Shown here: piece after piece, positions 1,710 through 26,470 of the stretch
How positions within the stretch are numbered: position 1 is the stretch's first letter
Layout of the letters: each line of letters starts with the position of its first letter
From: a phage
Direction: 5' to 3' (one strand)
Length of the DNA: 45,054 nucleotides
Sequence record: PZ445537.1
Position numbers and translations under genes: made by a program
The notes under the pieces: generated by a model
Told to the model about the DNA's origin: nothing
Databases searched by the model: none
Seen by the model: the letters and a program-made list of their open reading frames with translations, nothing else

Positions 1710-1722
1710 TTCGTGGTTCCGC

Positions 1723-3669: not shown

Positions 3670-3691
3670 AAAACAGTCCTGACAAACAGAT

Positions 3692-3710
3692 GCCCGTAAG
3701 GGCTTTTTTT
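3692..3710 (+). terminator. intrinsic terminator after capsid gene
   Basis: Hairpin GCCCGTAAGGGC (3692-3703) followed by TTTTTTT (3704-3710); a second hairpin CAGCCCCGCAAGGGGCTG at 3722-3739 lies just before the next RBS. Confidence 0.6.
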
Positions 3711-3751
3711 ATACCTGAAACCAGCCCCGCAAGGGGCTGAATGGAGAAGTT

Positions 3752-4346: not shown

Positions 4347-4355
4347 GGAGGCGCT

Positions 4356-12510: not shown

Positions 12511-12993
12511 ATGAAAGTGAAAAAATACGGTTTGGTCTTATTTGGTGTGCTCTTTATTTCAGGTTGTGCCCCACAAAATCAGAATAACAATTTACAAAAG
12601 CAATACGCTGATTTAGCAAATTGTGAAGATAACATTACGATGCCAAAACAAATGCCGCATAGTAAAAAGGAGTTTGCGGACTTTTTATCTAAGGCTGCGC
12701 TTAATGCCTCGGCAGATCAGTTTGTTATTCAGAAGCGTATAGAGATTCTTCAATTAGTTGGATGGGATAATTCGGTAGCTGATGCAATAACAACATGTAG
12801 CGCCACCAGAAAGAGCAAGCTTAAAGAAATTGGGGCGAATGTGTTTGAAACCATGAAAGCCAATACTAAAGACACAGAGGAACGTCGTGCTCTTGTTGAG
12901 GCTTATAGTTCGTGGGAAGCTTATGTAACCAGTCAAACGCCACTCGCAAAACAGGACTTTGACTCAAAAGTTAGTTATTACAAAAACATGTAA
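12511..12993 (+). CDS. lipoprotein moron (function unknown)
   Basis: Signal peptide with lipobox (MKVKKYGLVLFGVLFISGC); RBS AAGGAG at 12504-12509 (GTG 12517 is an alternative start); the gene is visibly AT-rich compared with flanking tail genes; inserted between I and J where lambda has none; own terminator follows. Confidence 0.7.
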   Translation: MKVKKYGLVLFGVLFISGCAPQNQNNNLQKQYADLANCEDNITMPKQMPHSKKEFADFLSKAALNASADQFVIQKRIEILQLVGWDNSVADAITTCSATRKSKLKEIGANVFETMKANTKDTEERRALVEAYSSWEAYVTSQTPLAKQDFDSKVSYYKNM

Positions 12994-13023
12994 TAAGACG
13001 CCATCATTAATACTAACAAATAA

Positions 13024-13045
13024 CCCAGCTCAGGCTGGGTTTTTT
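13024..13045 (+). terminator. intrinsic terminator after lipoprotein moron
   Basis: Perfect hairpin CCCAGC-TCAG-GCTGGG (13024-13039) followed by TTTTTT (13040-13045), directly before the J start. Confidence 0.65.
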
Positions 13046-13057
13046 AATGGGGTAAAA

Positions 13058-16000
13058 ATGCAACTTCTCCATGGTGAAACCATCATACAGGGTGCAAAAG
13101 GGGGCGGTGGAAGCGCGCATACTCCGGTTGAGCAACCTGACGATCTGCTGTCGGTCGCAAAATTAAAAATGCTCATTGCCGTTTCTGAGGGGGAAATACA
13201 GGGCGACCTGACCGCTCAGAATATTTTTCTCAACGATACGCCGCTGGCAAACGACAGCGGGGATTACAACTTCAGCGGCGTGAAATGGGAGTTCCGGAAG
13301 GGCACACAGGACCAGACCTATATTGCCGGGATGCCCCAGGTCGATAACGAGCTGGCGGTTGGCACAACTGTCACCACCACCGCGCCATGGACACGCCAGT
13401 TTACCAATCTTTCCCTGGATGCCATCCGCATCAAGCTCAGCCTTCCGGTCCAGTATCTCTATAAAGATAACGGCGATATGGTGGGCACGGTCACCGAGTA
13501 TGCGATCGATTTATCAACGGATGGCGGCGCCTGGAAAACGGTTGTAAACGGCAAGTTTGACGGAAAGACCACGACGGAATATCAGCGTGACCACCGTATC
13601 GATCTGCCAAAATCCACGTCCGGCTGGTCTGTCAGGGTCAGGCGTATTACGGCTGATGCCAGCGGATCAAATTCGAAACTGGTTAACGCCTTCAAGGTGT
13701 TTTCGTATGCAGAAGTCATCGACAGCAAGCTTCGTTATCCTTTAACCGCGCTCCTGTATGTCGAAGTGGACAGCAGCCAGTTCAACGGCAGCGCGCCGAA
13801 AGTGACCTGTAAGATAAAAGGCAAGCTGATTAAGGTTCCGGATAATTACGATCCGACAACCCGAACCTATTCTGGCTCATGGTCCGGCGGGTTCAAAATG
13901 GCCTGGTCCAATAACCCCGCCTGGATATTTTACGATCTGGTTCTGGATGAAATTTACGGCATGGGCACGCGCGTGGATGCGTCCATGGTGGATAAGTGGG
14001 CGCTGTATTCAATCGCCCAGTACTGTGACGAAATGGTTTCCGACGGGGCCGGTGGCACCGAACCGCGTTTCACCTGCAACGTTTTCATTCAGAGCCAGGA
14101 GGACGCCTGGCAGGTACTTAACGATCTCGCCGCGGTATTCCGTGGAATAACGTTCTGGGGCAACGATCAGATTTATGTCCAGGCAGACGTCCCGCAGGAC
14201 GATGTTGACTGGGTTTATAACGTCTCAAACGTTATCGATGGGCTGTTTACTTATGCGGGCGGCTCATACAAGAATCGCTACAGCTCCTGCCTGGTGTCCT
14301 GGTCCGATCCGCAGAACCATTACAGCGATACCGTTGAGGGGGTTTACGATTCGGCGCTTGTAGAACGTTACGACGTCCGGCAGACGTCCCTGACCGCAAT
14401 CGGCTGCACCTCGCAAAGTGAAGCGCACCGACGCGGTCGCTGGGTATTGCTCTCCAATGCCAAAGACGGGACCGTATCGTTTGGCGTGGGGCTGGACGGT
14501 TATATCCCTTTGCCCGCTGAAATTATCGGTGTCGCCGATCCTTTCCGCTCTGGTAAGGAGAACGGGGGCCGCATAAGCGCGGTCAACGGCCGCCAGATTA
14601 CCCTCGATCGAGAAGTAGACTACGCGGCGAAAGACCGGCTGGTGGTTAACCTTCCCGACGGAAAAGCCCAGACGCGGACAATCAGCGCGGTGAGCGCCGA
14701 TAAAAAAACGGTGACGGTGGCTACGGCATTCAGTCAGGTTCCTGTGGCGGGCGCTGTCTGGGCGATAGACAGTGATAACCTCGCAATACAGTACTTCAGG
14801 GTCACCTCAATCGCGGCTAACGACGACAGCACAGGCGGTTTCACTATTACGGCCGTTCAGCACGATCCAAACAAATATCGTTACATCGATGACGGCGTTC
14901 GGGTCGAGTCTCCCCCGATCACCGTCACGCCGATAAGCGTCCTGTCTGCTCCGGAGAATATCGTGGTGACTGAGAGCGATCATGTGTCTCAGGGGCTGAC
15001 TGTAGCAAGCCTGGACGTGTCATGGGATAAGGTAGAGGGCGCAATTCGGTATGTTGCCCAGTGGCGTAAGGACAACGGGGACTGGATAAACGTTCCGGTT
15101 ACCAGCGCGCAGGGTTTCTCGGTTCAGGGCATTTATTCGGGCAGCTATGACGTGCGCGTACGGGCGCTGAATGCGCAGGATACGTCGTCACCATGGGGAT
15201 ACGGTGAAACAACTTATCTCTCCGGTAAAACGGGAAAACCGGGTACTCCGCTCAACTTCCTGGCGACCGAAGATGTGGTCTGGCATATCGACCTGACCTG
15301 GAAATTTCCGGATGGCTCAGGCGACACGGCCTATACAGAGATTCAGCGCGCCACAACTGCCGACTACGCCAATCCTGAACTGCTGGTCCTGGTGCCGTAC
15401 CCGGCTGCAGATTATCAGCATGGCCCCATGCCTGCCGGCGTTCGCCAGTGGTACCGCGCGCGCCTGATTGACCGTATCGGTAACGCCGGGGACTGGACCG
15501 ACTGGATCATGGGCACGTCCTCGATAGATGTCAGCGAAATAACCAATGACATTCTGGAGGATATGAAAGAGTCGGAAACGTTTAAAGACCTGATCGAGAA
15601 TGCAGTGGACAGCAATGAAAAAATTGCTGGCATGGCTAACGATATCAAACAGGCCAACGACGAACTGGAGCAGCAGGCGAAGGATATCGCCAAAAATGCC
15701 CAGGACGTCGGGAAGGTTCAGACCAGCGTTAATGAGCTTTCGAGCACGGTCGGGAATGTTTCGTCTTCACTCAGTCAGCTTGAGCAGACCGTTGCGACGG
15801 CTGATACCGCCCTGGGCCAGCGAATCGACAACATCAGCGTTTCTATGGACGGCATGACGGGCGGGGTGAAGAACTCAGCCATTGCCATTATCCAGAACGG
15901 GCTAGCGCAGGTGGCTGCGCGTAAAACCCTTTCTGCATCGGTCGCCGGCAACAGCGCGAATCTGGACCGTATTGATGAGGTGATTGTCAACGACAGGGAG

Positions 16001-16618
16001 GCAACGGCGCGCTCGCTGCTGAGCCTGCAGACGGACGTCAACGGCAACAAGGCATCCATCAACAGCCTGAACCAGACGTTCTCCGATTACCAGCAGGCTA
16101 TGGCCACGCAAGTAAACAGCATCACGGCGACGGTGAACGGGCATACCTCTGCCATCACAACTAACGCTCAGGCGATAGCTAACGTAAACGGCGACCTCAG
16201 CGCGATGTACAACATCAAGGTTGGTGTCTCCAGCAACGGGCAGTATTACGCCGCGGGAATGGGTATCGGAGTGGAGAATACGCCATCCGGCATGCAGTCG
16301 CAGGTTATCTTCCTGGCTGACCGCTTCGCCGTCACCACGGCAGCCGGAAACAGCGTGGCTCTGCCGTTCGTGATCCAGAACGGGCAGACATTCATTCGGG
16401 CCAGCTTCATTCAGGACGGCACCATTGAGAACGCCAAAATCGGCAACTATATCCAGTCGAATAACTATGTGGCTGGTTCTTCCGGCTGGAAGCTTGATAA
16501 GGGAGGGACGTTCGAAATTAACGGCGTGGCCGGGGGCGGGAGGATGCTGATATCCAGCACTCTCATTCGTATCTACGACAGCAACAACGTGCTGCGCGTC
16601 AGAATGGGGTTATGGTAA
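13058..16618 (+). CDS. J: tip attachment / host specificity protein gpJ
   Basis: 1186 aa from ATG 13058 (track ORF from 12959 would span the moron terminator). N-terminal two-thirds collinear with lambda gpJ (GGTEPRFTCN, WALYSIAQYCD, ITAVQHDP); C-terminal ~400 aa divergent and coiled-coil-rich. Confidence 0.9.
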   Translation: MQLLHGETIIQGAKGGGGSAHTPVEQPDDLLSVAKLKMLIAVSEGEIQGDLTAQNIFLNDTPLANDSGDYNFSGVKWEFRKGTQDQTYIAGMPQVDNELAVGTTVTTTAPWTRQFTNLSLDAIRIKLSLPVQYLYKDNGDMVGTVTEYAIDLSTDGGAWKTVVNGKFDGKTTTEYQRDHRIDLPKSTSGWSVRVRRITADASGSNSKLVNAFKVFSYAEVIDSKLRYPLTALLYVEVDSSQFNGSAPKVTCKIKGKLIKVPDNYDPTTRTYSGSWSGGFKMAWSNNPAWIFYDLVLDEIYGMGTRVDASMVDKWALYSIAQYCDEMVSDGAGGTEPRFTCNVFIQSQEDAWQVLNDLAAVFRGITFWGNDQIYVQADVPQDDVDWVYNVSNVIDGLFTYAGGSYKNRYSSCLVSWSDPQNHYSDTVEGVYDSALVERYDVRQTSLTAIGCTSQSEAHRRGRWVLLSNAKDGTVSFGVGLDGYIPLPAEIIGVADPFRSGKENGGRISAVNGRQITLDREVDYAAKDRLVVNLPDGKAQTRTISAVSADKKTVTVATAFSQVPVAGAVWAIDSDNLAIQYFRVTSIAANDDSTGGFTITAVQHDPNKYRYIDDGVRVESPPITVTPISVLSAPENIVVTESDHVSQGLTVASLDVSWDKVEGAIRYVAQWRKDNGDWINVPVTSAQGFSVQGIYSGSYDVRVRALNAQDTSSPWGYGETTYLSGKTGKPGTPLNFLATEDVVWHIDLTWKFPDGSGDTAYTEIQRATTADYANPELLVLVPYPAADYQHGPMPAGVRQWYRARLIDRIGNAGDWTDWIMGTSSIDVSEITNDILEDMKESETFKDLIENAVDSNEKIAGMANDIKQANDELEQQAKDIAKNAQDVGKVQTSVNELSSTVGNVSSSLSQLEQTVATADTALGQRIDNISVSMDGMTGGVKNSAIAIIQNGLAQVAARKTLSASVAGNSANLDRIDEVIVNDREATARSLLSLQTDVNGNKASINSLNQTFSDYQQAMATQVNSITATVNGHTSAITTNAQAIANVNGDLSAMYNIKVGVSSNGQYYAAGMGIGVENTPSGMQSQVIFLADRFAVTTAAGNSVALPFVIQNGQTFIRASFIQDGTIENAKIGNYIQSNNYVAGSSGWKLDKGGTFEINGVAGGGRMLISSTLIRIYDSNNVLRVRMGLW

Positions 16619-16914
16619 TGCCACAGGGTTTGCAATGTTGGGATAGTGCAGGGCGGGTTGCAGTGGATTTAAGCGATTACGCGGTCCGTTACATGGGCAG
16701 CGCAACTGTTTCGCTTGCTTCAGGAGAGTCGTCAAAAAATGTCGCCTTTTCTGGCGCAACGCAGGACGGGACGTTTGTCACCATCGTTTCAACTGGCGTG
16801 ACTGTAAACGAGTATTTTTGCCGCGCTTATAACGGCGGCTTTACTCTCTACTATCTCCCCACGGGTGGAAGTGCCGCAATCACTCTCAATGTTGAGGTTT
16901 ATAACTTTCAATGA
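16612..16914 (+). CDS. hypothetical protein, translationally coupled to J
   Basis: 100-aa ORF whose ATG overlaps the J stop (ATGGTAA); no recognisable motif. Confidence 0.45.
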   Translation: MVMPQGLQCWDSAGRVAVDLSDYAVRYMGSATVSLASGESSKNVAFSGATQDGTFVTIVSTGVTVNEYFCRAYNGGFTLYYLPTGGSAAITLNVEVYNFQ

Positions 16915-17552
16915 GCGGATTCGAAGTTTACAACAGCGACGGAAAACTGCTGGTGGATTCACAAAACAGATCGACCATGTTTTATGATCAACGCGCGCTG
17001 GGTGCCGTAACCAATAAAGGCTATTACCGTGTTGATAGCCCGTTTGGTGATGGCAGTACACTTGGCACCACTCCTCAGGCATTCTGGAATGACGGGCGCT
17101 TAAGGTGGCTGCAGCTGGGTACGAACAAATACGGTTTTCCGGGTGCTGATATGCTGGAAGATAATGCGGGTAGCATGATCCGAACTGCGCGAAATATTGG
17201 CATCCAGAGCGGCTATCTCGATGTGTTTGATAGTGCCGGAAACCTTATCTGGAGTGCGGCCTCAGCGTCTAAGATGCCGAGAGTATTCGGGTTCTTTGAT
17301 GTGCCAGCGAACTATGACCTGCAGAACAATACGTTCTCAGTAAGTCTCAGTTTCAACCCCTGGATTCTGGTAAATAACTGCCCAGGTAATCTCAGCGATG
17401 ATGGCACGGTTGTAGGGTATTCAGGTGTAGTGCTCAAATGGACTGGCTCGCAGCTGCAGGGCAGATATATATCTAAAAATCAGCGCAACTGGAGCCAGAC
17501 ATTTCAGGGTAGGGGATTACGAATCCCCATTGCTCAGTTTGTCGGTATTTGA
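16911..17552 (+). CDS. hypothetical protein, coupled to upstream ORF
   Basis: 213-aa ORF starting at an ATGA overlap (16911-16914); no recognisable motif; possible tail-tip accessory by position. Confidence 0.5.
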   Translation: MSGFEVYNSDGKLLVDSQNRSTMFYDQRALGAVTNKGYYRVDSPFGDGSTLGTTPQAFWNDGRLRWLQLGTNKYGFPGADMLEDNAGSMIRTARNIGIQSGYLDVFDSAGNLIWSAASASKMPRVFGFFDVPANYDLQNNTFSVSLSFNPWILVNNCPGNLSDDGTVVGYSGVVLKWTGSQLQGRYISKNQRNWSQTFQGRGLRIPIAQFVGI

Positions 17553-17879
17553 CTCAGGGGGAACGCGAGGATACTGCGTGGCAATCATGTTTTGTCTCAC
17601 GCCTTTCGCTGCGTTGAAGCGATAAACAACATCCAGTTTATCGGTTTTTTTATAGCAAATATTACTGAGCCGCTTATTTACATGGCGGCTAAATATTCCA
17701 TTGCTGCTGTCAGAAATAACCGTCATTTCTCGCGTGGCGCAGTCAATATTAACGTGAATATCACCGCCCAATGATAAACGGGCAGCGTCAACCGGATAAT
17801 CCATTCTGAATGCGTTGTCTGTGTGTTTACTGGAACAGCCAGCCAGCAGCAAAAATATTGCAGCAAATAATCGTTTCAT
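17517..17879 (-). CDS. lipoprotein (reverse-strand moron)
   Basis: 120 aa; signal peptide with lipobox (MKRLFAAIFLLLAGCSS); RBS AGGAA 8 nt upstream; opposite strand to the tail operon, 3' end converges on the previous gene by 36 nt. Confidence 0.6.
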   Translation of the reverse strand: MKRLFAAIFLLLAGCSSKHTDNAFRMDYPVDAARLSLGGDIHVNIDCATREMTVISDSSNGIFSRHVNKRLSNICYKKTDKLDVVYRFNAAKGVRQNMIATQYPRVPPESNTDKLSNGDS

Positions 17880-17949
17880 TTCTACATTCCTGTAAATGCG
17901 GGAATATCCATTTTATTAGAGTTTAAAAAATAGTCAGATTGATATGAGC

Positions 17950-17984
17950 GATCAATTTTACATGATTGATCGTTTCAAACGATC
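17950..17984. promoter_or_regulatory. compound palindrome in divergent intergenic region
   Basis: GATCAAT-N8-ATTGATC (17950-17971) overlapping GATCGTTT-C-AAACGATC (17968-17984), between the reverse lipoprotein start (17879) and the tail fibre start (18006); three GATC sites. Confidence 0.4.
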
Positions 17985-18005
17985 GTTATTATCGTGAGGT
18001 AGTTC

Positions 18006-19292
18006 ATGCTTTATAACACTGGCACTATCGCTATTAACGGAAATACCGCAACCGGCACTGGCACAAACTGGACGGCACCGGCCAGCCAGGTTCGCGCTGG
18101 ACAGACGATTATCGTCATGTCTAACCCGGTCCAGATGTTCCAGATTTCATCCGTGAACAGCGCCACATCGATGACGGTTACGCCAGCTGCTTCCCCGGCG
18201 CTGAGCGGCCAGAAGTACGGCATTCTGGTATCAGACAATATCTCGGTCGATGGTCTGGCGCAGGCGATGTCTCAGCTCATCAAAGAGTATGACGAGAATA
18301 TCGGTGCGTGGGAGACCTTCGCTACCACATCAGCAAATCAGAGCATTACCGTGACCATCAACGGCACCGCCGTAACCATCCCTGGCATCGGGAAACTGGC
18401 GCAGAAAGGGAGCAACGGTGCGCTTGCAATCGCTGACGGCGGGACCGGGGCAACGAAGGCAGAAGACGCTCGCACAAACCTCGGTTTAGGAAGTAGTGCG
18501 TTGAAGAATTTGCAAAGCACAACCGAGGACAAAACGTCTGGGGCTGTTTTGCAGGTTGGAGCCTTCGGATTAGGTGCGGAGGCTCCAACGATCCCTGCTA
18601 ATGATGCGAATCAGATTGTTGGCTATAACGGTTTTGTTTCCGGTGCAGGGGCTCCTGGAACGAACTGGGTAAACGTGTACGGTCCCATGCTCGTTATGAG
18701 GAGAATCAGCGCGGTTGCTCAGGTCCAGGTAAACTCTGTTGGTGGATTGGCATCACGCTACGGTCTGGTTACGGATATGACCGTTAACAATGGCGGTGCA
18801 TGGTGTGTTCACTGGCATGACAGAAACACAACGGTGGACTCAAGCGGGTTCATAAAACGGGCTTCGCCTATCGTTAAGTTGTTTTTTGATGGAAGCTACG
18901 AAACAAATGATGAATCTGAGGGGTGCACAGTACGCCGTATCGAAACAGGCCAATATCTTATAGAAGGATGTCATGGCCTGAATGCTGAGGCTATTTGGGG
19001 CGGGGTTGATGGCGGTTTTGAGATACCCTCAGACCGTAATAAACAGCCGCTGATATGGCTGGATTATGAGGTAAATGCTGACGGATCGGTGCTGGTAAAA
19101 ACCTATCACCGCACACACCCGCAAGCGCCAGCGTTCGCCAGGAACGAGCTGCAGGGCATCAACGATGGCGACCCGGTCGACATTCCCCGCGATCAGTTTG
19201 TGTCCGTGCGCGTCGAAATGCCTGGCGATTCTCTGTACAACCAGAAACTCAGAGCCGTAGAGCTGATCCTTGCTGCTGATGAAGGTGAATAA
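18006..19292 (+). CDS. side tail fibre protein (constant N-terminus plus currently expressed distal cassette A)
   Basis: 428 aa; tail-fibre motif GGTGATKAEDARTNLGLG at aa ~142-159; the constant/variable junction coincides with crossover site S1; C-terminal ~130 aa nearly identical to inverted cassette D. Confidence 0.85.
   Translation: MLYNTGTIAINGNTATGTGTNWTAPASQVRAGQTIIVMSNPVQMFQISSVNSATSMTVTPAASPALSGQKYGILVSDNISVDGLAQAMSQLIKEYDENIGAWETFATTSANQSITVTINGTAVTIPGIGKLAQKGSNGALAIADGGTGATKAEDARTNLGLGSSALKNLQSTTEDKTSGAVLQVGAFGLGAEAPTIPANDANQIVGYNGFVSGAGAPGTNWVNVYGPMLVMRRISAVAQVQVNSVGGLASRYGLVTDMTVNNGGAWCVHWHDRNTTVDSSGFIKRASPIVKLFFDGSYETNDESEGCTVRRIETGQYLIEGCHGLNAEAIWGGVDGGFEIPSDRNKQPLIWLDYEVNADGSVLVKTYHRTHPQAPAFARNELQGINDGDPVDIPRDQFVSVRVEMPGDSLYNQKLRAVELILAADEGE
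18469..18494 (+). other. invertase crossover site S1 (hix/gix-like)
   Basis: CTCGCACAAACC-TC-GGTTTAGGAAGT: 12+2+12 architecture with AAACC/GGTTT flanking the core as in gix as recalled; lies inside the fibre gene and encodes ARTNLGLGS. Confidence 0.75.
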
Positions 19293-19309
19293 AGGTCGGT
19301 TTGGGAGAC
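19284..19309 (+). other. invertase crossover site S4
   Basis: GGTGAATAAAGG-TC-GGTTTGGGAGAC; shares the right half-site with S1; spans the stop of cassette A and the start of cassette B. Confidence 0.65.
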
Positions 19310-20131
19310 AGCGCCACAGCCAACTTCGGAAGCCTCGAGATCGGAGCCAAAAAACCTTCTTCAGCAAGCTTTGTTGATTTCCATTTTCTTGGCACCAACG
19401 ACTATGACGCGCGCATCCTGTGTGGTGGTAATTCTAATGGTGCCATGGGGAAAGGGGACTTCACTTTTTACGCGGGGAAATACGTTTTTATCGGCGATAG
19501 CTTTGAGTTTCGCAACCCCATTACCTGTCAAAATAGCATCAGCGCATCTGCAAAAATAGCGACCACTGCTGATATGGAATGCAAAACTAAAATCGCTGTT
19601 TTGGCACCGGCTGACAATCAAAATGCCCATGTATGGTTCTATGGCACAGGTGGGGCATCCAGGGGGGTTATTTATTCCGGGCAAACAGGAATTATTCAGA
19701 TCCGTCCCGACAATAATGATAACGGCGGCTCCAACGGATACTCTTTTGCATTTGGGGCCGATGGTAAGTTTACCTGCGTCACGATGAACCAGACCTCAGA
19801 TGAGCGAGTAAAATTCGATAAAGAGCCCGTCAGTAACGCTCTGGAGAAGATTTGTTCCCTGACGGGTTATACGTTCGGCATTCAGCTCACAGAATCTGAG
19901 TCGGTACGTAGCGCAGGCATCATCGCACAGGAACTGGAGCAGGTTCTGCCGATCGCTGTGAGTTCTGGCGGCACCGGAACAACACCTGCAGGAGAGGAAA
20001 TTAACGATCTCAAAACCGTGGACTACAGCGCAATGAGCGCCCTCTACGTTGAGGCAATCAAGGAATTAACCAACCGGTTGAAAAGTGTTGAGAGCGAACT
20101 TACTGCAATACGTGACCGCTCAAACGCTTAG
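19301..20131 (+). CDS. silent tail fibre distal cassette B with C-terminal intramolecular chaperone (S74-like) domain
   Basis: 276 aa counted from TTG inside S4; no RBS or ATG; frame opens right at the crossover site; C-terminus has the self-cleaving chaperone signature (SDERVKFD...GIIAQELEQVLPIAV...VDYSAMSALYVEAIKEL). Confidence 0.7.
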   Translation: MGDSATANFGSLEIGAKKPSSASFVDFHFLGTNDYDARILCGGNSNGAMGKGDFTFYAGKYVFIGDSFEFRNPITCQNSISASAKIATTADMECKTKIAVLAPADNQNAHVWFYGTGGASRGVIYSGQTGIIQIRPDNNDNGGSNGYSFAFGADGKFTCVTMNQTSDERVKFDKEPVSNALEKICSLTGYTFGIQLTESESVRSAGIIAQELEQVLPIAVSSGGTGTTPAGEEINDLKTVDYSAMSALYVEAIKELTNRLKSVESELTAIRDRSNA

Positions 20132-20781
20132 TTTCTTGTCTTATCTTCTAAAGCCCCGACGCGGATTGCCAGGGCTTTTATCGCGGCCAGCGCATCGAGC
20201 AACATGGGGGTCTGGTCGAGATGCAGCAGGCCGCCAATATCTTTGACGTATTCAGGGTCGATAGTTTCAATCTGCTGAGATATCACCCCGCGCCGTGGGG
20301 TCTGCGTTTCATCATCCTTAAAAGTGAAGTGTTTGAACTCCATCCGTGAAATGTTGCCCAGCGCCTCTTCTGGATCGAGGTCGTCACCAATATTTTTCAT
20401 AATTCTGTCTGAAACTGCAGACGTCATTATCTCCTTCCATGGGCTCCATGTATCAGTGTTGTAACCCCTGAAAAAAAACCTTCCCGCATCAGTTTTGTTG
20501 GCATACGGCAAGCAGAACTGCGTCAAGGCTACATCAGGAATACGAACATAATTTTGAACATACCCATACCAGCTGGTGATAGGTCCTGAAGTTGATTTCG
20601 CCATATCTAACAGCAAACGATATGTACCAGGTTCAGTCAGGGCATTGAAATTTGTCCCGTCAGGAGCAACTGCCATATCTGTTTTAAAGGCTCTGGCATC
20701 ACCAGTTGGCAACCCGAATGCCCCCACCTGCATGACGTTCCCGGCTGCGCCGCCTGCATCCAGCGTGGCGCTACTTCCCAA
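20128..20781 (-). CDS. silent tail fibre distal cassette C (inverted) with chaperone-like C-terminus
   Basis: 217 aa on the minus strand beginning inside site S2 (GLGSSATLDAGGAAGNVMQVGAFGL); C-terminus resembles an S74-type chaperone domain (SDRIMKNI...GVISQQIE); stop codon overlaps cassette B's stop tail to tail. Confidence 0.7.
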   Translation of the reverse strand: MGSSATLDAGGAAGNVMQVGAFGLPTGDARAFKTDMAVAPDGTNFNALTEPGTYRLLLDMAKSTSGPITSWYGYVQNYVRIPDVALTQFCLPYANKTDAGRFFFRGYNTDTWSPWKEIMTSAVSDRIMKNIGDDLDPEEALGNISRMEFKHFTFKDDETQTPRRGVISQQIETIDPEYVKDIGGLLHLDQTPMLLDALAAIKALAIRVGALEDKTRN

Positions 20782-20798
20782 ACCGACCTTTATTCACC
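20773..20798 (-). other. invertase crossover site S2 (inverted relative to S1)
   Basis: Minus-strand sequence GGTGAATAAAGG-TC-GGTTTGGGAAGT; 23 of 26 nt identical to S4. Confidence 0.7.
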
Positions 20799-21527
20799 TT
20801 CATCCGTAGTCATTGCCAGTTCTGTGGCCCTGAGTTTTTGGTTGTACAAAGAATCGGCAGGCATCTCGACACGGACGGACAAAAACTGGTCATGGGGGAT
20901 ATCGACCGGATCGCCATTGTTGATACCCAGCAGTTCGTTCCTGGCGAACGCTGGCGCGTCAGGATACGTGCGGTGAAAGGTTTTCACCAGCACCGAGCCG
21001 TCAGCGTTAACCTCATAATCCAGCCAGATCAGCGGCTGCTTGTTACGGTCTGTAGGAATGTCAAAACCGCCATCGATTCCGCCCCAGGCTGCGTCAGAGT
21101 TCAACCCTTCACACCCTTCGATAAGATACTGCCCTACGTCCAGACGGATGACCTTTATGCCTTCGGATTCATCATTGGTTTGGTATGCACCATCCGAAAA
21201 TACTTTCACCACAGGCGATGCTGCTTTCAGTGTGCCATCGCTGGCCCTCGTGGTATTGCCCGTGGTGTAAGCCTCCTGATATGACCAGGACGTGCCACCG
21301 TAATACGAAAACCACGTCCGCCTTAGAATGTAGGCCTGATGAATACGGGTTGGTCGGCTGCCCCGATTGACGACTATAGACGTAATACCGGTATTTGCAG
21401 TTAACCCGAGCTGGGTCTGTCCGTCATTTTGATGGGAGGAGAAACAGGTCGGTGTAAATGCGTCCATAGCGTCCAACAGTGGGCCGTCTCCGTTGATAGT
21501 TCCAAGCCCAAATGCGCCCACTTGCAT
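20790..21527 (-). CDS. silent tail fibre distal cassette D (inverted)
   Basis: 245 aa from ATG 21527; the same frame stays open upstream to site S3 (…LGSSATKDVGTTAGNIMQVGAFGL); C-terminal ~130 aa (NDESEG…DEGE) nearly identical to cassette A, forming a long imperfect inverted repeat. Confidence 0.75.
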   Translation of the reverse strand: MQVGAFGLGTINGDGPLLDAMDAFTPTCFSSHQNDGQTQLGLTANTGITSIVVNRGSRPTRIHQAYILRRTWFSYYGGTSWSYQEAYTTGNTTRASDGTLKAASPVVKVFSDGAYQTNDESEGIKVIRLDVGQYLIEGCEGLNSDAAWGGIDGGFDIPTDRNKQPLIWLDYEVNADGSVLVKTFHRTYPDAPAFARNELLGINNGDPVDIPHDQFLSVRVEMPADSLYNQKLRATELAMTTDEGE

Positions 21528-21566
21528 GATGTTCCCGGCAGTCGTTCCGACGTCCTTTGTCGCGCT

Positions 21567-21592
21567 ACTTCCTAAACCGACGTTTTATAGAT
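21567..21592 (-). other. invertase crossover site S3 (inverted relative to S1)
   Basis: Minus-strand sequence ATCTATAAAACG-TC-GGTTTAGGAAGT; right half plus next 6 nt (GGTTTAGGAAGTAG.GCG) identical to S1; preceded by an in-frame TAA. Confidence 0.75.
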
Positions 21593-21657
21593 TGCCCTGG
21601 GGCAGCCTGGCCGATAACGTCACCTGATTTTTTCTTACAAAAAGGTGACTAAAAAAC

Positions 21658-22212
21658 ATGCAATATGGGTATGCAAGGGTATCAACTTTTGACCAAAATC
21701 TTGAATTACAGTTAGAGGCGCTAAATCGGTCAGAATGTGACCAGATATTTGAGGATAAAATATCCGGAGCGAAGTCAAAACGTCCTGGCCTGGATAAGAT
21801 GATGAAGTTATTGCGGCCAGGTGACACCGTCATCGTCTGGAAGCTAGACCGGCTCGGTCGATCACTCATACACCTCGTCGATTTACTGCGCTATTTCCGG
21901 GCTAATAATATTGAATTTGTCTCAATCACTGAGGGAATAAGGATCAGCACGTCAATCGGCAGATTCGCATACACAATGTTGAGTGCTGCGGCTGAGATGG
22001 AAAGAGAAAATATTATTGAAAGAACAAGGGCAGGTTTAGCCGTGGCAAGGGCAAAAGGGAGAATAGGTGGGAGGCGTCCAAAGTTAACACCAGAACAATG
22101 GGCGCAGGCTGGGAGATTAATATCAAACGGCGTGGATAGAAAACAGGTGGCAATAATTTATGATGTGGCTGTATGCACGCTTTATAAAAAATTTCCGGTG
22201 GGGCAGGCTTAA
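21658..22212 (+). CDS. serine recombinase, DNA invertase (Hin/Gin/Cin/Pin family)
   Basis: 184 aa; N-terminal catalytic motif YARVSTFDQ; RPGL…GDT-VVWKLDRLGRS block matches Hin as recalled; C-terminal HTH; sits just outside the invertible segment as gin/cin/pin do. Confidence 0.9.
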   Translation: MQYGYARVSTFDQNLELQLEALNRSECDQIFEDKISGAKSKRPGLDKMMKLLRPGDTVIVWKLDRLGRSLIHLVDLLRYFRANNIEFVSITEGIRISTSIGRFAYTMLSAAAEMERENIIERTRAGLAVARAKGRIGGRRPKLTPEQWAQAGRLISNGVDRKQVAIIYDVAVCTLYKKFPVGQA

Positions 22213-23177: not shown

Positions 23178-23249
23178 CGTGTAAATGTCGGGGATTATTC
23201 CCCCATTTTTCCCCAATGATTCCCCGTACAAATTTCAAACATAAAAAAA

Positions 23250-23272
23250 CCAGCCATAAGTGGCTGGTTTTG
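23250..23272. terminator. bidirectional intrinsic terminator next to attP core
   Basis: A-run, hairpin CCAGCCATAAGTGGCTGG (23250-23267), then TTTTG; on the minus strand it lies just 3' of the tRNA fragment. Confidence 0.6.
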
Positions 23273-23282
23273 ATAATAATTT

Positions 23283-23328
23283 TGGTCGGCACGAGAGGAT
23301 TTGAACCTCCGACCCCCGACACCCCATG
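23283..23328 (-). other. attP core: 3' ~46 nt of a tRNA gene (tRNA-Pro-like)
   Basis: Minus strand reads CATGGGGTGTCGGGGGTCGGAGGTTCAAATCCTCTCGTGCCGACCA: anticodon-arm remnant, T-arm and acceptor 3' strand with CCA, but no 5' half. Identity to tRNA-Pro is from memory. Confidence 0.6.
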
Positions 23329-23384
23329 TCACTGCGTTAAAGCCGCTGCAACCCTTGTAAATACTGGTGCTACGGCATGTTTGA

Positions 23385-23400
23385 CTGTATATGCAAACAG
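23385..23400. promoter_or_regulatory. second SOS-box-like palindrome near attP
   Basis: CTGTATATGCAAACAG (CTGT-N8-ACAG) preceded by TTGACT and followed by ATTTTT, closely paralleling the dinI promoter; no obvious downstream ORF. Confidence 0.4.
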
Positions 23401-23464
23401 TGCATTTTTTGCAAAATCCGCACTATATACATCAATGAGTTACGGGTAGGTTTTTCCCCATACA

Positions 23465-24652
23465 TCACCCGGCTTTAAAGACAATTTCAGCATGAGGAAC
23501 TTCTACCCATTCAACATGATTCTGGGTATAAATTTTTGTCGATTTTGCATCACTATGGGCCATCCTTGCCTGCGGATCGATACCTTGTCTTTCGAAAATA
23601 TGAGCCGCCAGCGCTCTAATCTCGTGGAAAGTTGGCCTTTCTTTGATAGGTAATTCTGCCGCTACACCTATCCGGTCCCGCAGCTCTGAAAATGCTCTGC
23701 TCAAATAATCAGGGGCCACCTGTGTTGGGTGGTTAACTTCCTTGCTTATAGGATTGCTTCTCTTTTCCAGAAGCCGGTGAACAACATAAGGACTGGCCAC
23801 ATTGTCTCTGCTGTTGTCGATGATCTCTTTCAGGGCCCTGCCGATCGGAATGGCAACGTGTGAGGCCTCTTTGTGCTGCACTTTTTGCCGATGAATGTAA
23901 AGCGTTCCGAATATTCCAGCCTCTTCCTGATCTAACCATACACATCCGCAAACCCCTTCTTTAGGTTCCTTGATCGAGTACCGGATCCGGGAAACTTCCA
24001 GGCGCGCTTGCGTAGTTTGTATTGCAAGGTCCATTGCAGTCTTCAGCCAAGGTTCAGCAGCTGCATGTATGGCCAGGAACTGCTCCAAAGTAAGTCGCCG
24101 GCGGACCTTTTTATCGACACGCCGCATTTTTTTCCGTGTTGCAGGATTATCCATCATTAGCGATTCATCCACAGCATAAGAGAATAGCTTTTTCAGGAAG
24201 CTAACTTTTCGGTTCTGAACATTGGCCGACGATTCAGAATGGTAATTTCGTATGTAGGCATTTACGTGCTCAAGCTCAATGTCACACGCGGGTATGTTAT
24301 TAAAAAATTCTTTAACCCTGATGGCATCATTATTCCAATCGTCAAGTGTGCTTTTAGACGGCTGCTCATCTTTGATCGCTCTCTCCATAATGCGATCAAC
24401 ATGTTCAGAAAACGGGTGGGCTTCACCATTAAGCCCTCCCGATTCCCGAATTAATGAATCTATCGATGGTGTGTTTTCAGGGCGCATCCTCAGGTTATAT
24501 TCTCGGGCGATGGCGATAGCCATTACTCGATCCGAACCGAGAGTTTTCTTTTTCCCAGTTATAAGCGTGAACTTATACACGCCACGATCTTTATCAAAAA
24601 AAAGATAATCAGGAAGGTGGCGGTATTCTTTTTTTCGTGGCCTTGCTGCCAT
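23465..24652 (-). CDS. int: tyrosine integrase (lambda Int family)
   Basis: 395 aa from ATG 24652 (RBS GAGGG; track start 24658 is TTG); C-terminal catalytic region HEIRALAAH…RMAHSDAKSTKIYT fits the R-H-R-Y pattern; adjacent to the attP core. Confidence 0.95.
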   Translation of the reverse strand: MAARPRKKEYRHLPDYLFFDKDRGVYKFTLITGKKKTLGSDRVMAIAIAREYNLRMRPENTPSIDSLIRESGGLNGEAHPFSEHVDRIMERAIKDEQPSKSTLDDWNNDAIRVKEFFNNIPACDIELEHVNAYIRNYHSESSANVQNRKVSFLKKLFSYAVDESLMMDNPATRKKMRRVDKKVRRRLTLEQFLAIHAAAEPWLKTAMDLAIQTTQARLEVSRIRYSIKEPKEGVCGCVWLDQEEAGIFGTLYIHRQKVQHKEASHVAIPIGRALKEIIDNSRDNVASPYVVHRLLEKRSNPISKEVNHPTQVAPDYLSRAFSELRDRIGVAAELPIKERPTFHEIRALAAHIFERQGIDPQARMAHSDAKSTKIYTQNHVEWVEVPHAEIVFKAG

Positions 24653-24654
24653 GG

Positions 24655-24864
24655 TCAACCCTCAATTATTAACTGACGTACCGCCTGATTAACAATTGAG
24701 TCAACTCCCCACTTTTCGGTTTCATAGACAAAAACTGAACCATCTACAATCCTTCCCATGAGTAATCCGTTTTCGACCCAACGTTTAATTGTACGGTTGT
24801 CAGGAATGGAGTCTTTAGTAAACTCGCGCTTACTCCAGAGACTCGCTTTCATTAGCTTTGCCAT
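24655..24864 (-). CDS. xis: excisionase-like protein
   Basis: 69 aa from ATG 24864 (RBS GAAGGA); TIKRWVENG…GSVFVYETE resembles the Xis DNA-binding fold; stop abuts the int start. Confidence 0.65.
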   Translation of the reverse strand: MAKLMKASLWSKREFTKDSIPDNRTIKRWVENGLLMGRIVDGSVFVYETEKWGVDSIVNQAVRQLIIEG

Positions 24865-26246: not shown

Positions 26247-26470
26247 CCTCCACCCCTGCGCTGTCTCTGCATTATTTCTAAATATTCCTGGCAACTGGCG
26301 CACGTTTTGCAGCCAGGCATTGCAACCCGGCGCGCCTCAGGAATGTCCTCTCCGCATTCAGAACAGTGCTCTGCAGAGACTGCATTCTGATCAATACGGT
26401 GTTTTTGTATGGCCAACTGCAGGCGGTGCTCTAACAGCTCGTTTGCCTGATCGATGATGTCTGAACTCAT
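26243..26470 (-). CDS. TraR/DksA-family C4 zinc-finger protein
   Basis: 75 aa with CSECGEDIP…GCKTCASC (CxxC-N17-CxxC) typical of phage TraR-like proteins. Confidence 0.7.
   Translation of the reverse strand: MSSDIIDQANELLEHRLQLAIQKHRIDQNAVSAEHCSECGEDIPEARRVAMPGCKTCASCQEYLEIMQRQRRGGG

What the first reader, a model, noticed from the sequence alone, without database searches (positions are those of the whole stretch)
17517..18005. Reverse-strand lipoprotein downstream of the J cluster with a compound GATC palindrome in its divergent promoter region
A second lipoprotein gene (lipobox LLAGC) lies on the opposite strand to the whole structural operon, in the post-J position where FhuA-dependent lambdoid phages carry the cor exclusion gene. 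The 126-bp region between it and the tail fibre gene contains two overlapping perfect palindromes built around GATC (17950-17984), which could be an operator or a Dam-sensitive switch.
Basis: partly seen in the sequence, partly recalled or inferred. Interest (0 to 1): 0.5.

Follow-up and report, generated by a model that had tools for sequence, protein, structure and literature searches.

The report
TonB-like exclusion lipoprotein with GATC switch
A temperate E. coli phage carries, next to its receptor-binding genes, a backwards-facing gene for a membrane-anchored copy of the TonB end domain that most likely blocks the phage's own receptor (YncD) from inside the cell. Upstream of the gene lies a strongly conserved three-GATC element built like the known methylation-sensitive OxyR switches of phage Mu mom and E. 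coli agn43.

Summary
The window is phage Eeyore (PP925821). ORF 17517-17879(-) is a conserved 120-aa lipoprotein gene. The 126-bp spacer before the tail-fibre gene holds three GATCs (17950, 17968, 17981) in overlapping inverted repeats.

The cor idea is right in spirit but wrong in family. The protein shares only its signal peptide with Cor and Rtp45. It is the third gene of a YncD-type receptor-binding module: the 100-aa, 213-aa and lipoprotein genes match the three genes downstream of J in the YncD-dependent phages IsaakIselin and IME347.

The spacer is 91-94% identical across relatives (one near-identical copy is 100%), while synonymous sites of the gene are mostly 55-71% identical. The GATC spacing of 18/13 equals that of Mu mom; agn43 has 19/13.

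The exact motif recurs in at least 120 viral contigs, including a com-mom operon and P2-like phages. In several unrelated contexts a small envelope-protein gene starts 62-78 bp to its left. Control spacings gave zero hits.

Function and OxyR/Dam control are inferred, not shown.

The parts
17517..17879 (-). Gene for a 120-aa outer-membrane lipoprotein whose mature domain (about residues 26-90) has a TonB C-terminal-domain-like fold. It has two invariant Cys besides the lipobox Cys (C47, C75) and a conserved, low-confidence C-terminal tail (QNMIATQYPRVPP). It is the candidate superinfection-exclusion factor for a YncD-type receptor module.
   Evidence: (phrog_25729, E 4e-67)
17835..17879 (-). 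Signal peptide plus lipobox (MKRLFAAIFLLLAG|C). Ser at +2 predicts sorting to the outer membrane.
   Evidence: the lipobox rule [LVI][ASTVI][GAS]C and the +2 Asp retention rule are established knowledge
17880..18005 (.). 126-bp intergenic regulatory region. It is 91-94% identical in 12 of 13 relatives (100% in the near-identical Enterobacter RIT637 copy), while third-codon positions of the adjacent lipoprotein gene are mostly 55-71% identical.
17947..17983 (.). 37-bp candidate OxyR-type site holding the three GATCs (17950, 17968, 17981; spacing 18 and 13). The second half-site, ATCGTTTCAAACGAT, matches the OxyR half-site consensus at 8/10 positions.
   Evidence: same spacing as Mu mom; agn43 is 19/13; spacing controls
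17949..17972 (.). IR1: CGATCAAT-N8-ATTGATCG, invariant in all 14 aligned sequences.
17968..17987 (.). IR2 (GATCGTTTcAAACGATC) overlapping the 10-bp palindrome AACGATCGTT. The inner arms are not conserved and the changes are not compensated.
17910..17937 (-). Candidate sigma-70 promoter for the lipoprotein gene: -35 CTGACT (17937-17932), 16-bp spacer, -10 TAAAAT (17915-17910). Both hexamers are invariant. A -35-like TTGA box sits at the same distance from GATC-I in unrelated cassettes.
17886..17905 (.). Hairpin-forming sequence ATTCCTGTAAATGCGGGAAT overlapping the lipoprotein 5'UTR and Shine-Dalgarno sequence. The stem is conserved and the loop varies. It looks terminator-like on the + strand. 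Its role is unresolved.
16911..17552 (+). 213-aa candidate receptor-binding protein of the YncD type. It is 48% identical over its full length to the proteins of IsaakIselin (Bas10) and IME347. Its last 36 nt overlap the 3' end of the lipoprotein gene in convergent orientation.
   Evidence: PMC8594841, PMC6499177, bioRxiv 10.64898/2026.04.02.716166
16612..16914 (+). 100-aa first gene of the three-gene receptor module, 33% identical to Bas10_0026.
12959..16618 (+). J-like central tail fibre gene (the GenBank start corresponds to window 13058). The module sits directly downstream of it.
18006..19292 (+). Side tail fibre gene. Its ATG lies 21 bp after GATC-III. Similarity to HK97-type phages starts only at about 17999.

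Best explanation
What it is. The minus-strand gene is the third member of a three-gene receptor module of the YncD type: a 100-aa protein, a 213-aa receptor-binding protein and an exported accessory protein. The module sits directly downstream of J.

The protein. In this temperate lineage the accessory protein is an outer-membrane lipoprotein facing the periplasm. Its mature domain is a disulfide-stapled homologue of the TonB C-terminal domain.

Inferred mechanism. The protein docks on the periplasmic face of the TonB-dependent transporter YncD. The most plausible mode is beta-strand pairing with the TonB box or plug, as TonB itself does. Docking would lock the receptor in a state the phage's receptor-binding protein cannot use. 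That would give superinfection exclusion in lysogens and protect progeny from debris at lysis.

Expression. The gene faces away from the late operon, so it needs its own promoter (candidate -35 at 17937-32, -10 at 17915-10). Immediately upstream of that promoter lies a three-GATC element with the architecture of the Mu mom and agn43 OxyR/Dam sites.

Inferred regulation. A host protein, most likely OxyR, binds the element when it is unmethylated, and Dam methylation prevents binding. Expression of the exclusion gene would then depend on methylation state and could be bistable. Whether binding activates or represses cannot be told from sequence.

Shown: gene, lipobox, homology and synteny, fold prediction, non-coding conservation, GATC spacing and recurrence. 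Inferred: YncD as target, exclusion, the TonB-box binding mode, and OxyR/Dam control.
For: Module membership.
- All three genes are homologous to the three genes downstream of J in IsaakIselin: 33%, 48% (full length) and 30% identity.
- The RBP is 48% identical over its full length to those of IsaakIselin and IME347. Both phages are experimentally YncD-dependent (PMC8594841, PMC6499177).
- Published work assigns this locus to RBPs plus exclusion factors (PMC8594841, PMC11990801). The 2026 preprint defines a YncD RBP family with accessory proteins.
- An accessory lipoprotein of the LptD allele, Rtp45, is a proven periplasmic-face exclusion factor (PMC12685063).

Export.
- Lipobox in the lambdoid clade; Sec signal peptide or TM anchor in other members.
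- Two invariant Cys in the mature domain.

Fold.
- The AF2 model has pLDDT 80-93 for residues 31-90.
- A profile search of PDB sequences returns only TonB C-terminal domains (best E 0.05), aligning the YP..A...G signature.

Regulatory element.
- The spacer is 91-94% identical in 12 of 13 relatives, against mostly 55-71% at third-codon positions.
- The GATCs are invariant. A divergent copy keeps the 18/13 spacing although the filler bases differ.
- Mu mom has 18/13 and agn43 has 19/13. The gtr P22 GATC pairs are 13 bp apart inside OxyR half-sites.
- The OxyR consensus score is 13/20, in the same register and with the same score as Mu mom.
- The exact pattern finds at least 120 viral contigs. 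These include a com-mom operon (Com 63% identical to Mu Com), P2-like phages and others.
- Spacings 17/13 and 18/14 give 0 hits; 19/13 gives 14.
- In several unrelated contexts (a 40-aa TM peptide in P2-likes, a 103-aa TM protein, a 36-aa peptide, 58-60-aa Zn-ribbon proteins, 33-43-aa peptides), a small gene with an SD starts 62-78 bp to the left of the motif, as the lipoprotein does at 70 bp.
Against: - No experiment bears on this protein or its homologues; 'accessory protein' is all the literature says for the YncD allele.
- IME347 infection is TonB-independent (PMC6499177). Simple competition with TonB therefore cannot be the exclusion mechanism; an allosteric or plug-locking effect has to be assumed.
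- Pfam TonB_C does not hit the protein. hhalign against E. coli TonB gives only 6% probability. Homology rests mainly on the predicted fold.
- The OxyR consensus match is weak statistically. AT-rich random 70-mers reach 13/20 or more in 4-10% of trials. The first half-site scores only 5/10.
- In Mu mom, the com-mom contig and agn43 the regulated gene lies on the other side of the motif (towards GATC-III), which here is the tail-fibre gene.
- The promoter is a consensus match (9/12), not mapped.
Confidence: 0.55

Rival explanations
1. The three-GATC element controls the rightward tail-fibre gene rather than the lipoprotein gene. A host repressor bound to unmethylated GATCs would block a promoter overlapping GATC-I/II, as at agn43, or act from upstream, as at Mu mom.
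For: - In Mu mom, the com-mom contig L061 and agn43, the regulated gene lies on the GATC-III side, which here is stf.
- A + strand promoter-like match, TTGATA-16-CATGAT, lies at 17939-17966.
Against: - The stf ATG is only 21 bp from the motif.
- The + strand -10 varies among relatives (CATGAT, CACGAT, CATTAT) and is not recognisable in the divergent copy L021.
- stf sits in the late operon and can be read through.
- Several unrelated contexts have a small gene 62-78 bp to the LEFT, with a conserved -35-like TTGA box.
- In P2-like phages the motif lies about 100 bp upstream of where the pF start would be, outside the activator site annotated in P2.
Confidence: 0.15
2. The GATC element is a Dam-sensitive site for a host factor other than OxyR (for example Fur as at sci1, Lrp or SeqA), or for an unknown protein that recognises the ATTGATCG half-sites.
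For: - IR1 (CGATCAAT-N8-ATTGATCG) is invariant, but the canonical OxyR model does not explain its symmetry.
- The first OxyR half-site is weak, 2-6/10 across contexts.
- P2-like copies have a near Fur box (14/19) next to the motif.
- The OxyR score is not significant on its own.
Against: - Fur-box scores are inconsistent across contexts, and Eeyore reaches only 12/19.
- The 13-bp GATC pair inside an ATCG-N7-CGAT dyad is the hallmark of the OxyR/Dam sites of mom, agn43 and gtr.
- Only the two spacings known from OxyR/Dam sites occur in viral contigs.
- The pattern retrieves a com-mom operon.
Confidence: 0.2
3. The lipoprotein is not a receptor-specific exclusion factor. It would be a general TonB-system modulator: a decoy for many TonB boxes that changes iron, colicin or phage uptake as a lysogenic-conversion trait. 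Alternatively it has some other envelope role.
For: - The TonB-CTD fold in principle recognises conserved TonB boxes.
- The lipoprotein and the RBP gene have different divergence histories. RIT637 is 96% identical in the lipoprotein gene but 80% in the RBP gene; HK639 shows the reverse.
Against: - The family is found only together with the YncD-type RBP genes, in lambdoid and in Drexlerviridae phages.
- The family is very rare: 21 clusters among 1.84 billion representative proteins.
- Virulent phages carry it too, which fits receptor masking at lysis.
Confidence: 0.15
4. The palindromes are operators for a phage-encoded repressor (CI or Cro), tying the gene to the lysogenic state. Alternatively they are just hairpin terminators or recombination linkers between mosaic modules.
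For: - Inverted repeats are typical operators.
- IR2 and the 17886-17905 hairpin are flagged as terminator-like.
- The region lies at a mosaic boundary; HK97-type similarity starts at about 17999.
Against: - Eeyore's operators flanking cI are TGCG-N5-CGCA (29713, 29736, 30569, 30619), and none occurs in the spacer.
- The same motif occurs in P2-like, Mu-like and other unrelated phages with different repressors.
- IR2 inner-arm changes are not compensated.
- There is no Rfam match.
- The spacer is more conserved than both flanks in every comparison.
Confidence: 0.05

Closest known systems
Accessory protein of the YncD allele of the 'bona fide RBP locus' of small siphoviruses (IsaakIselin bas10_0024, IME347, NBD2_48; phrog_25729)
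   Same: - Homologous mature domain: 30-41% identity, with the invariant YP..A.R.S..G, two Cys, F..H and C(Y/H) positions.
- Same three-gene module directly downstream of J.
- Same RBP family.
   Different: - Drexlerviridae members have a cleavable Sec signal peptide (..NAMA|L) and no lipobox.
- There they lie on the same strand as the two RBP genes, and the whole locus is convergent with J.
- There they have no three-GATC spacer.
- In Eeyore the protein is lipidated, the gene is inverted relative to its partners, and it has its own conserved regulatory region.
Cor (phi80, N15, HK022, T1) and Llp (T5) outer-membrane exclusion lipoproteins
   Same: - Small lipoprotein encoded next to J or the RBP genes.
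- Intramolecular disulfide.
- Target is a TonB-dependent transporter, contacted from the periplasm (Llp-FhuA structure, PMC9586334).
- Moron-like expression in lysogens.
   Different: - No sequence similarity beyond the signal peptide.
- Different predicted fold (TonB-CTD-like).
- Larger: about 105 mature residues against about 60.
- Predicted target is YncD, not FhuA.
Rtp45, exclusion lipoprotein for LptD (PDB 9RPS; PMC12685063)
   Same: - Accessory gene of an RBP locus downstream of J.
- Binds the periplasmic face of the receptor and changes its extracellular loops.
   Different: - Unrelated sequence.
- About 6 kDa.
- The target is not a TonB-dependent transporter.
TonB C-terminal domain (E. 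coli TonB 150-239; FusB; PDB 2GRX, 1XX3, 7ZC8)
   Same: - YP..A...G signature.
- Edge strand beta3 is present.
   Different: - No inner-membrane anchor and no Pro-rich rod; anchored instead to the outer membrane by lipid.
- A disulfide links beta1 and alpha2.
- Extra conserved C-terminal tail.
- Below Pfam TonB_C detection.
Mu mom regulatory region (OxyR binds three unmethylated GATCs upstream of Pmom)
   Same: - Three GATCs with identical spacing, 18 and 13.
- OxyR consensus score 13/20 in the same register.
- Site lies upstream of the promoter: -56 to -87 in Mu by my count, about -44 to -80 here.
- Phage-borne.
   Different: - The orientation relative to the regulated gene is inverted if the lipoprotein is the target.
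- No Com- or C-type activator is evident.
- OxyR binding is not tested here.
agn43 (flu) and gtr(P22) Dam/OxyR phase-variation switches
   Same: - agn43 has three GATCs at 19/13, with an identical CGATCAAT at GATC-I and GATCGTTT at GATC-II.
- gtr has GATC pairs 13 bp apart inside OxyR half-sites.
- Both control surface or receptor-modifying traits carried by prophages.
   Different: - At agn43 the site lies downstream of the transcription start.
- gtr has four GATCs and three half-sites.
- Phase variation has not been shown for this element.
P2 fun(Z)
   Same: - A lysogenic-conversion gene that blocks another phage (T5).
- Transcribed divergently from the tail operon, at the G/FI site where P2-like relatives carry the GATC cassette.
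   Different: - Unrelated 529-aa protein.
- The P2 spacer has no three-GATC motif.

Membership tests
Cor/Llp exclusion lipoprotein family | Small exported protein with a lipobox, sorted to the outer membrane | tested here: met
   LLAG|C with Ser at +2
Cor/Llp exclusion lipoprotein family | Sequence homology of the mature domain to Cor or Llp | tested here: not met
   hhalign against HK022 Cor aligns only 20 signal-peptide residues. PHROGs returns only phrog_25729 (unknown function) and Pfam returns nothing.
Cor/Llp exclusion lipoprotein family | Inactivation of FhuA | not testable with these tools
   The adjacent RBP genes belong to the YncD family, not the FhuA family.
YncD-type RBP-locus accessory protein (phrog_25729) | Homology to the third gene of the locus in YncD-dependent phages | tested here: met
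   phrog_25729 E 4e-67. 30% identity, E 1e-14, to bas10_0024. 36-41% identity to the IME347, NBD2 and KL3 proteins.
YncD-type RBP-locus accessory protein (phrog_25729) | Synteny: directly downstream of J, together with the 100-aa and about 215-aa RBP-family genes | tested here: met
   The RBP is 48% identical over 100% of its length, which exceeds the >30% identity and >99% coverage criterion of the 2026 preprint.
YncD-type RBP-locus accessory protein (phrog_25729) | The phage uses YncD, and the protein blocks YncD-dependent infection | not testable with these tools
   Receptor data exist only for IsaakIselin and IME347 (PMC8594841, PMC6499177). No data exist for the accessory protein.
TonB C-terminal domain superfamily | alpha-beta-beta-alpha-beta fold superposable on solved TonB CTDs | tested here: met
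   [not shown]
TonB C-terminal domain superfamily | Sequence signature YP..A...G and a significant profile match | tested here: inconclusive
   The only three PDB profile hits are TonB CTDs, but with E 0.05-1.5. hhalign against E. coli TonB aligns 159-211 at 6% probability. Pfam TonB_C gives no hit. NCBIfam TonB gives E 0.17.
TonB C-terminal domain superfamily | Binds a TonB box by beta-augmentation | not testable with these tools
   No complex prediction or binding assay was available.
OxyR/Dam methylation-sensitive switch (mom / agn43 / gtr type) | GATCs placed inside OxyR half-sites: a 13-bp pair plus a third GATC 18-19 bp away | tested here: met
   The GATCs at 17950, 17968 and 17981 give spacing 18/13. 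Mu mom has 18/13 and agn43 has 19/13. gtr pairs are 13 bp apart. In IMG/VR only 18/13 (at least 120 hits) and 19/13 (14 hits) occur; 17/13 and 18/14 give 0.
OxyR/Dam methylation-sensitive switch (mom / agn43 / gtr type) | Match to the OxyR consensus ATAGnTnnnAnCTAT-N7-ATAGnTnnnAnCTAT | tested here: inconclusive
   13/20, in the same register and with the same score as Mu mom; only 7 of 45,018 window positions reach 13 or more. But 4-10% of AT-rich random 70-mers reach 13, and the first half-site scores only 5/10.
OxyR/Dam methylation-sensitive switch (mom / agn43 / gtr type) | Evolutionary conservation of the GATCs and their spacing | tested here: met
   Invariant in 14 sequences. Spacing is kept in the divergent L021 copy and in 59 IMG/VR homologues whose filler bases vary.
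OxyR/Dam methylation-sensitive switch (mom / agn43 / gtr type) | OxyR binding blocked by Dam methylation; protected GATCs in vivo; heritable ON/OFF states | not testable with these tools
   Needs EMSA, methylome and reporter experiments.

The most novel reading that the evidence does not exclude
Two linked novelties.

(1) A phage exclusion factor that is an outer-membrane-tethered decoy of the TonB C-terminal domain. It would grip the TonB box or plug of the TonB-dependent receptor YncD from the periplasm. That mechanism is structurally unrelated to Cor/Llp and Rtp45.

(2) Its expression in lysogens would be set by a heritable Dam/OxyR-type epigenetic switch. The switch would be a portable cassette: three GATCs at 18-19/13 spacing, a promoter and a small envelope protein gene. 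Many unrelated temperate phages (lambdoid, P2-like, Mu-like) would insert this cassette next to their tail-fibre genes. Prophage-conferred receptor masking would then phase-vary within a clonal lysogen population.
Probability: 0.3. Interest if true: 0.85.

Novelty: new variant of a known kind. Interest (0 to 1): 0.65.

Why it matters
Exclusion lipoproteins that disable phage receptors from the periplasm are known for FhuA (Cor, Llp) and LptD (Rtp45). Nothing has been described for YncD.

A TonB-domain decoy would be a third, structurally distinct solution. It would also be a natural ligand for the TonB-box and plug region of a TonB-dependent transporter, which is a target of interest for inhibitors.

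The gene family additionally allows YncD to be predicted as the receptor of HK639-like temperate phages and of Enterobacter prophages.

The GATC cassette suggests that methylation-dependent control, so far known in phages for Mu mom and the gtr operons, is a widespread way of regulating prophage 'moron' genes for envelope proteins. This would bear on heterogeneity in phage susceptibility among lysogens.

Both ideas can be tested directly with simple genetics.

Tried and rejected
- Pfam and NCBIfam scans of the lipoprotein gave nothing significant.
- A single-sequence phmmer search against PDB sequences gave no hits.
- Cor and Rtp45 homology is rejected: only the signal peptides align.
- The CI-operator idea is rejected. 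Eeyore's operators are TGCG-N5-CGCA and are absent from the spacer. The ATCG-N7-CGAT match at 30711 lies inside the cro-like gene.
- The idea of a known RNA element in the spacer is rejected: no Rfam match at E <= 1.
- IR2 as a conserved hairpin or terminator is rejected: the substitutions are uncompensated.
- A Fur box as a general explanation is weak and inconsistent across contexts.
- The GATC cluster as a statistical oddity by itself is rejected: about two such clusters are expected by chance.
- The OxyR consensus score as stand-alone evidence is rejected because of a 4-10% false-positive rate in AT-rich DNA.
- P2 itself was checked for the motif at the G/FI site and has none; it carries fun(Z) instead.
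- A fetch of P22 coordinates 1-4500 missed the gtr region and was not repeated.
- A paper search for Eeyore and its sister phages found nothing.
- Searches for TonB-like exclusion factors, or for unmethylated GATCs at prophage tail-fibre loci, found nothing relevant.
- The profile search of 1.84 billion representative proteins did not reach TonB proteins. It only showed that the family is rare, with 21 clusters.
- ARAGORN found no tRNA in the window.
Full report
IDENTITY OF THE WINDOW. The window is a circular permutation of Escherichia phage Eeyore (PP925821.1, 45,057 bp, 100% identity). Eeyore is a lambdoid temperate siphovirus with a CI repressor, a Q-like antiterminator, an integrase and an invertible tail-fibre segment. 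Its closest sequenced relatives at this locus are HK639, LMessi, CharmingMan, Flotzy and LLS (80-90% DNA identity). Prophages in E. coli UMNK88, ETEC1749 and 210205630, and in several Enterobacter and Pseudescherichia genomes, carry the same locus.

THE OBSERVATION. ORF 17517..17879(-) encodes 120 aa beginning MKRLFAAIFLLLAGC, a canonical lipobox with Ser at +2. It is intact at 120 codons in 13 relatives. Codon-position identity to Eeyore is 91-100% at position 2, 83-99% at position 1 and 55-89% at position 3. This is the signature of a real, constrained coding sequence. Its 3' end overlaps the convergent 213-aa gene by 36 nt.

The spacer to the tail-fibre ATG is 126 bp. It contains GATC at 17950, 17968 and 17981, arranged as three repeats:
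- IR1: CGATCAAT-N8-ATTGATCG.
- IR2: GATCGTTTcAAACGATC.
- The palindrome AACGATCGTT.

The description is therefore correct, with two qualifications. IR1 is a spaced inverted repeat rather than a palindrome. A cluster of three GATCs in 35 bp is not improbable on its own: about two are expected in 45 kb with 212 GATCs (my estimate).

WHAT THE GENE BELONGS TO. Pfam and NCBIfam give nothing significant, and PHROGs gives only phrog_25729, of unknown function. tblastn finds distant homologues (30-41% identity) in virulent Drexlerviridae of E. coli and Klebsiella. In IsaakIselin (Bas10), NBD2 and KL3 the homologue is the last of three small genes immediately downstream of the J-like gene.

All three Eeyore genes between J and the tail-fibre gene match those three genes:
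- The 100-aa protein is 33% identical.
- The 213-aa protein is 48% identical over its full length.
- The lipoprotein is 30% identical.

This is the 'bona fide RBP locus' of Maffei et al. 2021. Its alleles predict the terminal receptor, and it also encodes cognate exclusion factors (PMC8594841; PMC11990801). IsaakIselin was shown to need YncD (PMC8594841). IME347 needs YncD but not TonB (PMC6499177). The Eeyore RBP is 48.4% identical over 100% of its length to both. That is well above the criterion used to define the YncD RBP family in a 2026 preprint, which also notes one or two co-localised accessory proteins.

For the LptD allele, the accessory lipoprotein Rtp45 is a proven exclusion factor that binds the periplasmic face of the receptor (PMC12685063). 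For FhuA the same holds for Llp (PMC9586334). By position, export and analogy, the Eeyore lipoprotein is therefore the candidate exclusion factor for YncD. No experiment exists for this family.

IT IS NOT COR. hhalign of the family alignment against HK022 Cor and against Rtp45 aligns only the 20-21 residues of the signal peptides.

THE FOLD. An alignment of 24 family members shows these invariant positions: the lipobox Cys, D27 Y28 P29, A32, R34, S36, G39, C47, S56 D57, S59, G61, R65 H66, R70, I74 C75, K78, Y86, F88 and R105. Ten of them (Y28, P29, A32, R34, S36, G39, C47, F63, H66, C75) remain invariant when the Drexlerviridae homologues are added.

A profile of the family searched against all PDB sequences returns only three hits, all TonB C-terminal domains (E 0.05-1.5). 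These align the YP..A...G signature. NCBIfam had already given a sub-threshold TonB hit over the same residues. Sequence evidence alone is weak: hhalign probability is 6% and Pfam gives no hit. I therefore call this a TonB-CTD-like fold, with probable remote homology.

Anchoring varies across the family. The lambdoid and prophage clade has a lipobox. Drexlerviridae have a Sec signal peptide (..NAMA|L). A few members have an N-terminal extension plus a TM segment. The family is rare: 21 clusters among 1.84 billion representatives. In BFVD the only structural relatives are three unnamed proteins that are 30-38% identical to the query.

MECHANISM (INFERRED). YncD is a TonB-dependent transporter. 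A periplasmic, outer-membrane-tethered TonB-CTD look-alike is well suited to bind its TonB box or plug. IME347 infects without TonB, so exclusion cannot be mere competition with TonB. I propose that binding locks the plug or alters the extracellular loops, as Llp does with FhuA and Rtp45 does with LptD.

THE SPACER IS UNDER STRONG CONSTRAINT. Across the 13 relatives, the 126-bp spacer is 91-94% identical to Eeyore in 12 and 100% in the near-identical Enterobacter RIT637 copy. Over the same comparisons the lipoprotein gene is 75-96% identical, its third-codon positions are 55-89% identical, and the tail-fibre 5' region is 69-95% identical. All three GATCs, IR1 and the AACGATC core are invariant. 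Variation falls in the IR1 spacer and in the inner arms of IR2, without compensation. IR2 is therefore not conserved as a hairpin.

A more divergent copy comes from E. coli F467, next to an unannotated 103-aa lipoprotein. It keeps the three GATCs with the same 18/13 spacing, although the bases between them differ.

RELATION TO KNOWN DAM SWITCHES. I fetched the two classical OxyR/Dam sites.
- The Mu mom upstream region has GATCs spaced 18 and 13.
- agn43 has 19 and 13, with the same CGATCAAT at the first site and GATCGTTT at the second.
- In gtr(P22), GATC pairs 13 bp apart lie inside OxyR half-sites (PMC2909390).

Scoring the OxyR consensus gives 13/20 for 17947-17983. This is the same register relative to GATC-I, and the same score, as Mu mom. 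agn43 scores 14. Only 7 of 45,018 window positions reach 13 or more, and three of those are in this spacer.

The score alone is weak, because 4-10% of AT-rich random 70-mers reach 13. The second half-site is good (8/10) and the first is poor (5/10).

RECURRENCE AND CONTROLS.
- 59 hits are homologues of the Eeyore spacer. All have the TonB-like lipoprotein on one side and the tail-fibre gene on the other.
- 48 hits are P2-like phages, where the motif lies between the tail-fibre assembly gene and FI.
- The other 14 hits are mostly further contexts. They include a com-mom operon (Com 63% identical to Mu Com; Mom Pfam E 9e-77) and a D12 Dam-type methylase operon.

Shifting either spacing by one base gives 0 hits (17/13 and 18/14). 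The agn43 spacing of 19/13 gives 14 hits. Only the two spacings known from OxyR/Dam sites exist in this collection.

In several unrelated contexts a small gene with a Shine-Dalgarno sequence starts 62-78 bp to the left of GATC-I:
- A 39-40-aa TM peptide in P2-likes.
- A 103-aa TM protein.
- A 36-aa peptide.
- 58-60-aa zinc-ribbon proteins.
- 33-43-aa TM peptides.

The Eeyore lipoprotein starts 70 bp to the left. A -35-like TTGA box lies about 12 bp from GATC-I in these contexts. In Eeyore this box is the -35 (CTGACT, 17937-32) of the only good minus-strand promoter match, whose -10 is TAAAAT at 17915-10. Both hexamers are invariant. The candidate OxyR-type site then spans about -44 to -80, abutting the -35. 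From my own knowledge, this is the usual place for OxyR at promoters it activates, and it is comparable to Mu mom.

P2 itself carries a different divergent conversion gene at the same site: fun(Z), which blocks T5. It has no GATC motif there.

WHAT WAS EXCLUDED. The phage's own operators are TGCG-N5-CGCA on both sides of cI, and none occurs in the spacer. No Rfam family matches. Fur-box similarity is inconsistent across contexts.

VERDICT.
- The gene is real, and it is very likely an exported accessory or exclusion factor of a YncD-type receptor module (about 0.75).
- It is not a Cor family member.
- Its TonB-CTD-like fold is well supported at the level of prediction (about 0.85) and suggests a new structural solution for receptor masking.
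- The spacer is a strongly constrained regulatory region. Its three-GATC core has the architecture of the mom/agn43 sites and is part of a recurrent cassette. I put Dam sensitivity at about 0.6 and OxyR as the binding protein at about 0.45.
- The sign of regulation, bistability, and which promoter responds remain open.

I found no description of either feature in the searchable literature. That library is incomplete.

Noticed in passing
IMG/VR loci L028-L147 (e.g. L031 4735-4770, L061 9173-9208, L132, L138, L041 5587-5622 and 8694-8729) and L149-L162: The three-GATC motif (spacing 18/13 or 19/13) is a recurrent cassette in unrelated temperate phages. It occurs in P2-like phages between gene G and FI, next to a conserved divergent 39-40-aa TM peptide (MTILLWIVGGLAAWWLFGFCWLRLFVGDETEKDYEECPYD). 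It also occurs upstream of a com-mom operon, upstream of a D12 Dam-type methylase operon, and next to small Zn-ribbon or TM peptide genes. Shifted spacings give no hits.
   Followed up: partly
It matches phrog_8179 (unknown function) and has no Pfam hit. It is another possible envelope or exclusion moron.
   Followed up: no
window 17517-17552: The lipoprotein gene and the 213-aa RBP gene overlap convergently by 36 nt, in all relatives. Late transcription towards the tail-fibre gene must read antisense through the whole lipoprotein gene, so transcriptional interference between the lytic and lysogenic programmes is likely.
   Followed up: no
window 32594-33928 (+), 33867-35858 (+), 39761-40813 (+), 25494-26303 (-): The phage encodes three DNA methyltransferase-type proteins. 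One is a 444-aa protein with an N-terminal phage Dam domain (PF05869, E 2e-43), annotated as PAPS reductase. The second is a C5 cytosine methylase. The third is a late N6_N4 methylase just before the holin gene. A gene annotated as queuine tRNA-ribosyltransferase (DpdA-like?) has no Pfam hit. A phage-borne Dam could itself reset the GATC switch during lytic growth.
   Followed up: partly
window 19301-22212: There is an invertible tail-fibre segment. A Hin/Gin-type invertase lies at 21658-22212 (+). Alternative tail-fibre C-terminal and assembly genes lie on the minus strand (20128-20781, 20790-21527), opposite 19301-20131 (+). The related phage LLS has an annotated IR-L inside its tail-fibre gene.
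   Followed up: no
L005 (HK639) 2822-2980; L021 (E. coli F467) 2673-2984: There are annotation errors in relatives. HK639 lacks the lipoprotein gene and instead annotates a 52-aa ORF (HK639_26) on the opposite strand across its start. The F467 prophage leaves a divergent 103-aa lipoprotein homologue unannotated.
   Followed up: yes
proteins P0059, P0062, P0063, P0065: Some family members are 196-271 aa long. They have an N-terminal extension and a hydrophobic segment (..IGLAFAGAALLFSGMTRAEV) before the TonB-like domain. This would give a TonB-like inner-membrane-anchored topology, unless the gene starts are miscalled.
   Followed up: no
window 29713, 29736, 30520, 30569, 30619: Candidate OL/OR operators of the Eeyore CI repressor (TGCG-N5-CGCA or TTGCG..GCAA dyads) flank the cI gene (29804-30499, minus strand).
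   Followed up: partly
L010 (E. coli UMNK88) 8405-8767; window 23200-23460: The UMNK88 relative is integrated next to ssrA (tmRNA). The window has a tRNA/tmRNA-3'-end-like stretch next to the integrase gene (23465-24658), but ARAGORN finds no complete gene. This is consistent with an attP that carries a partial ssrA end.
   Followed up: no
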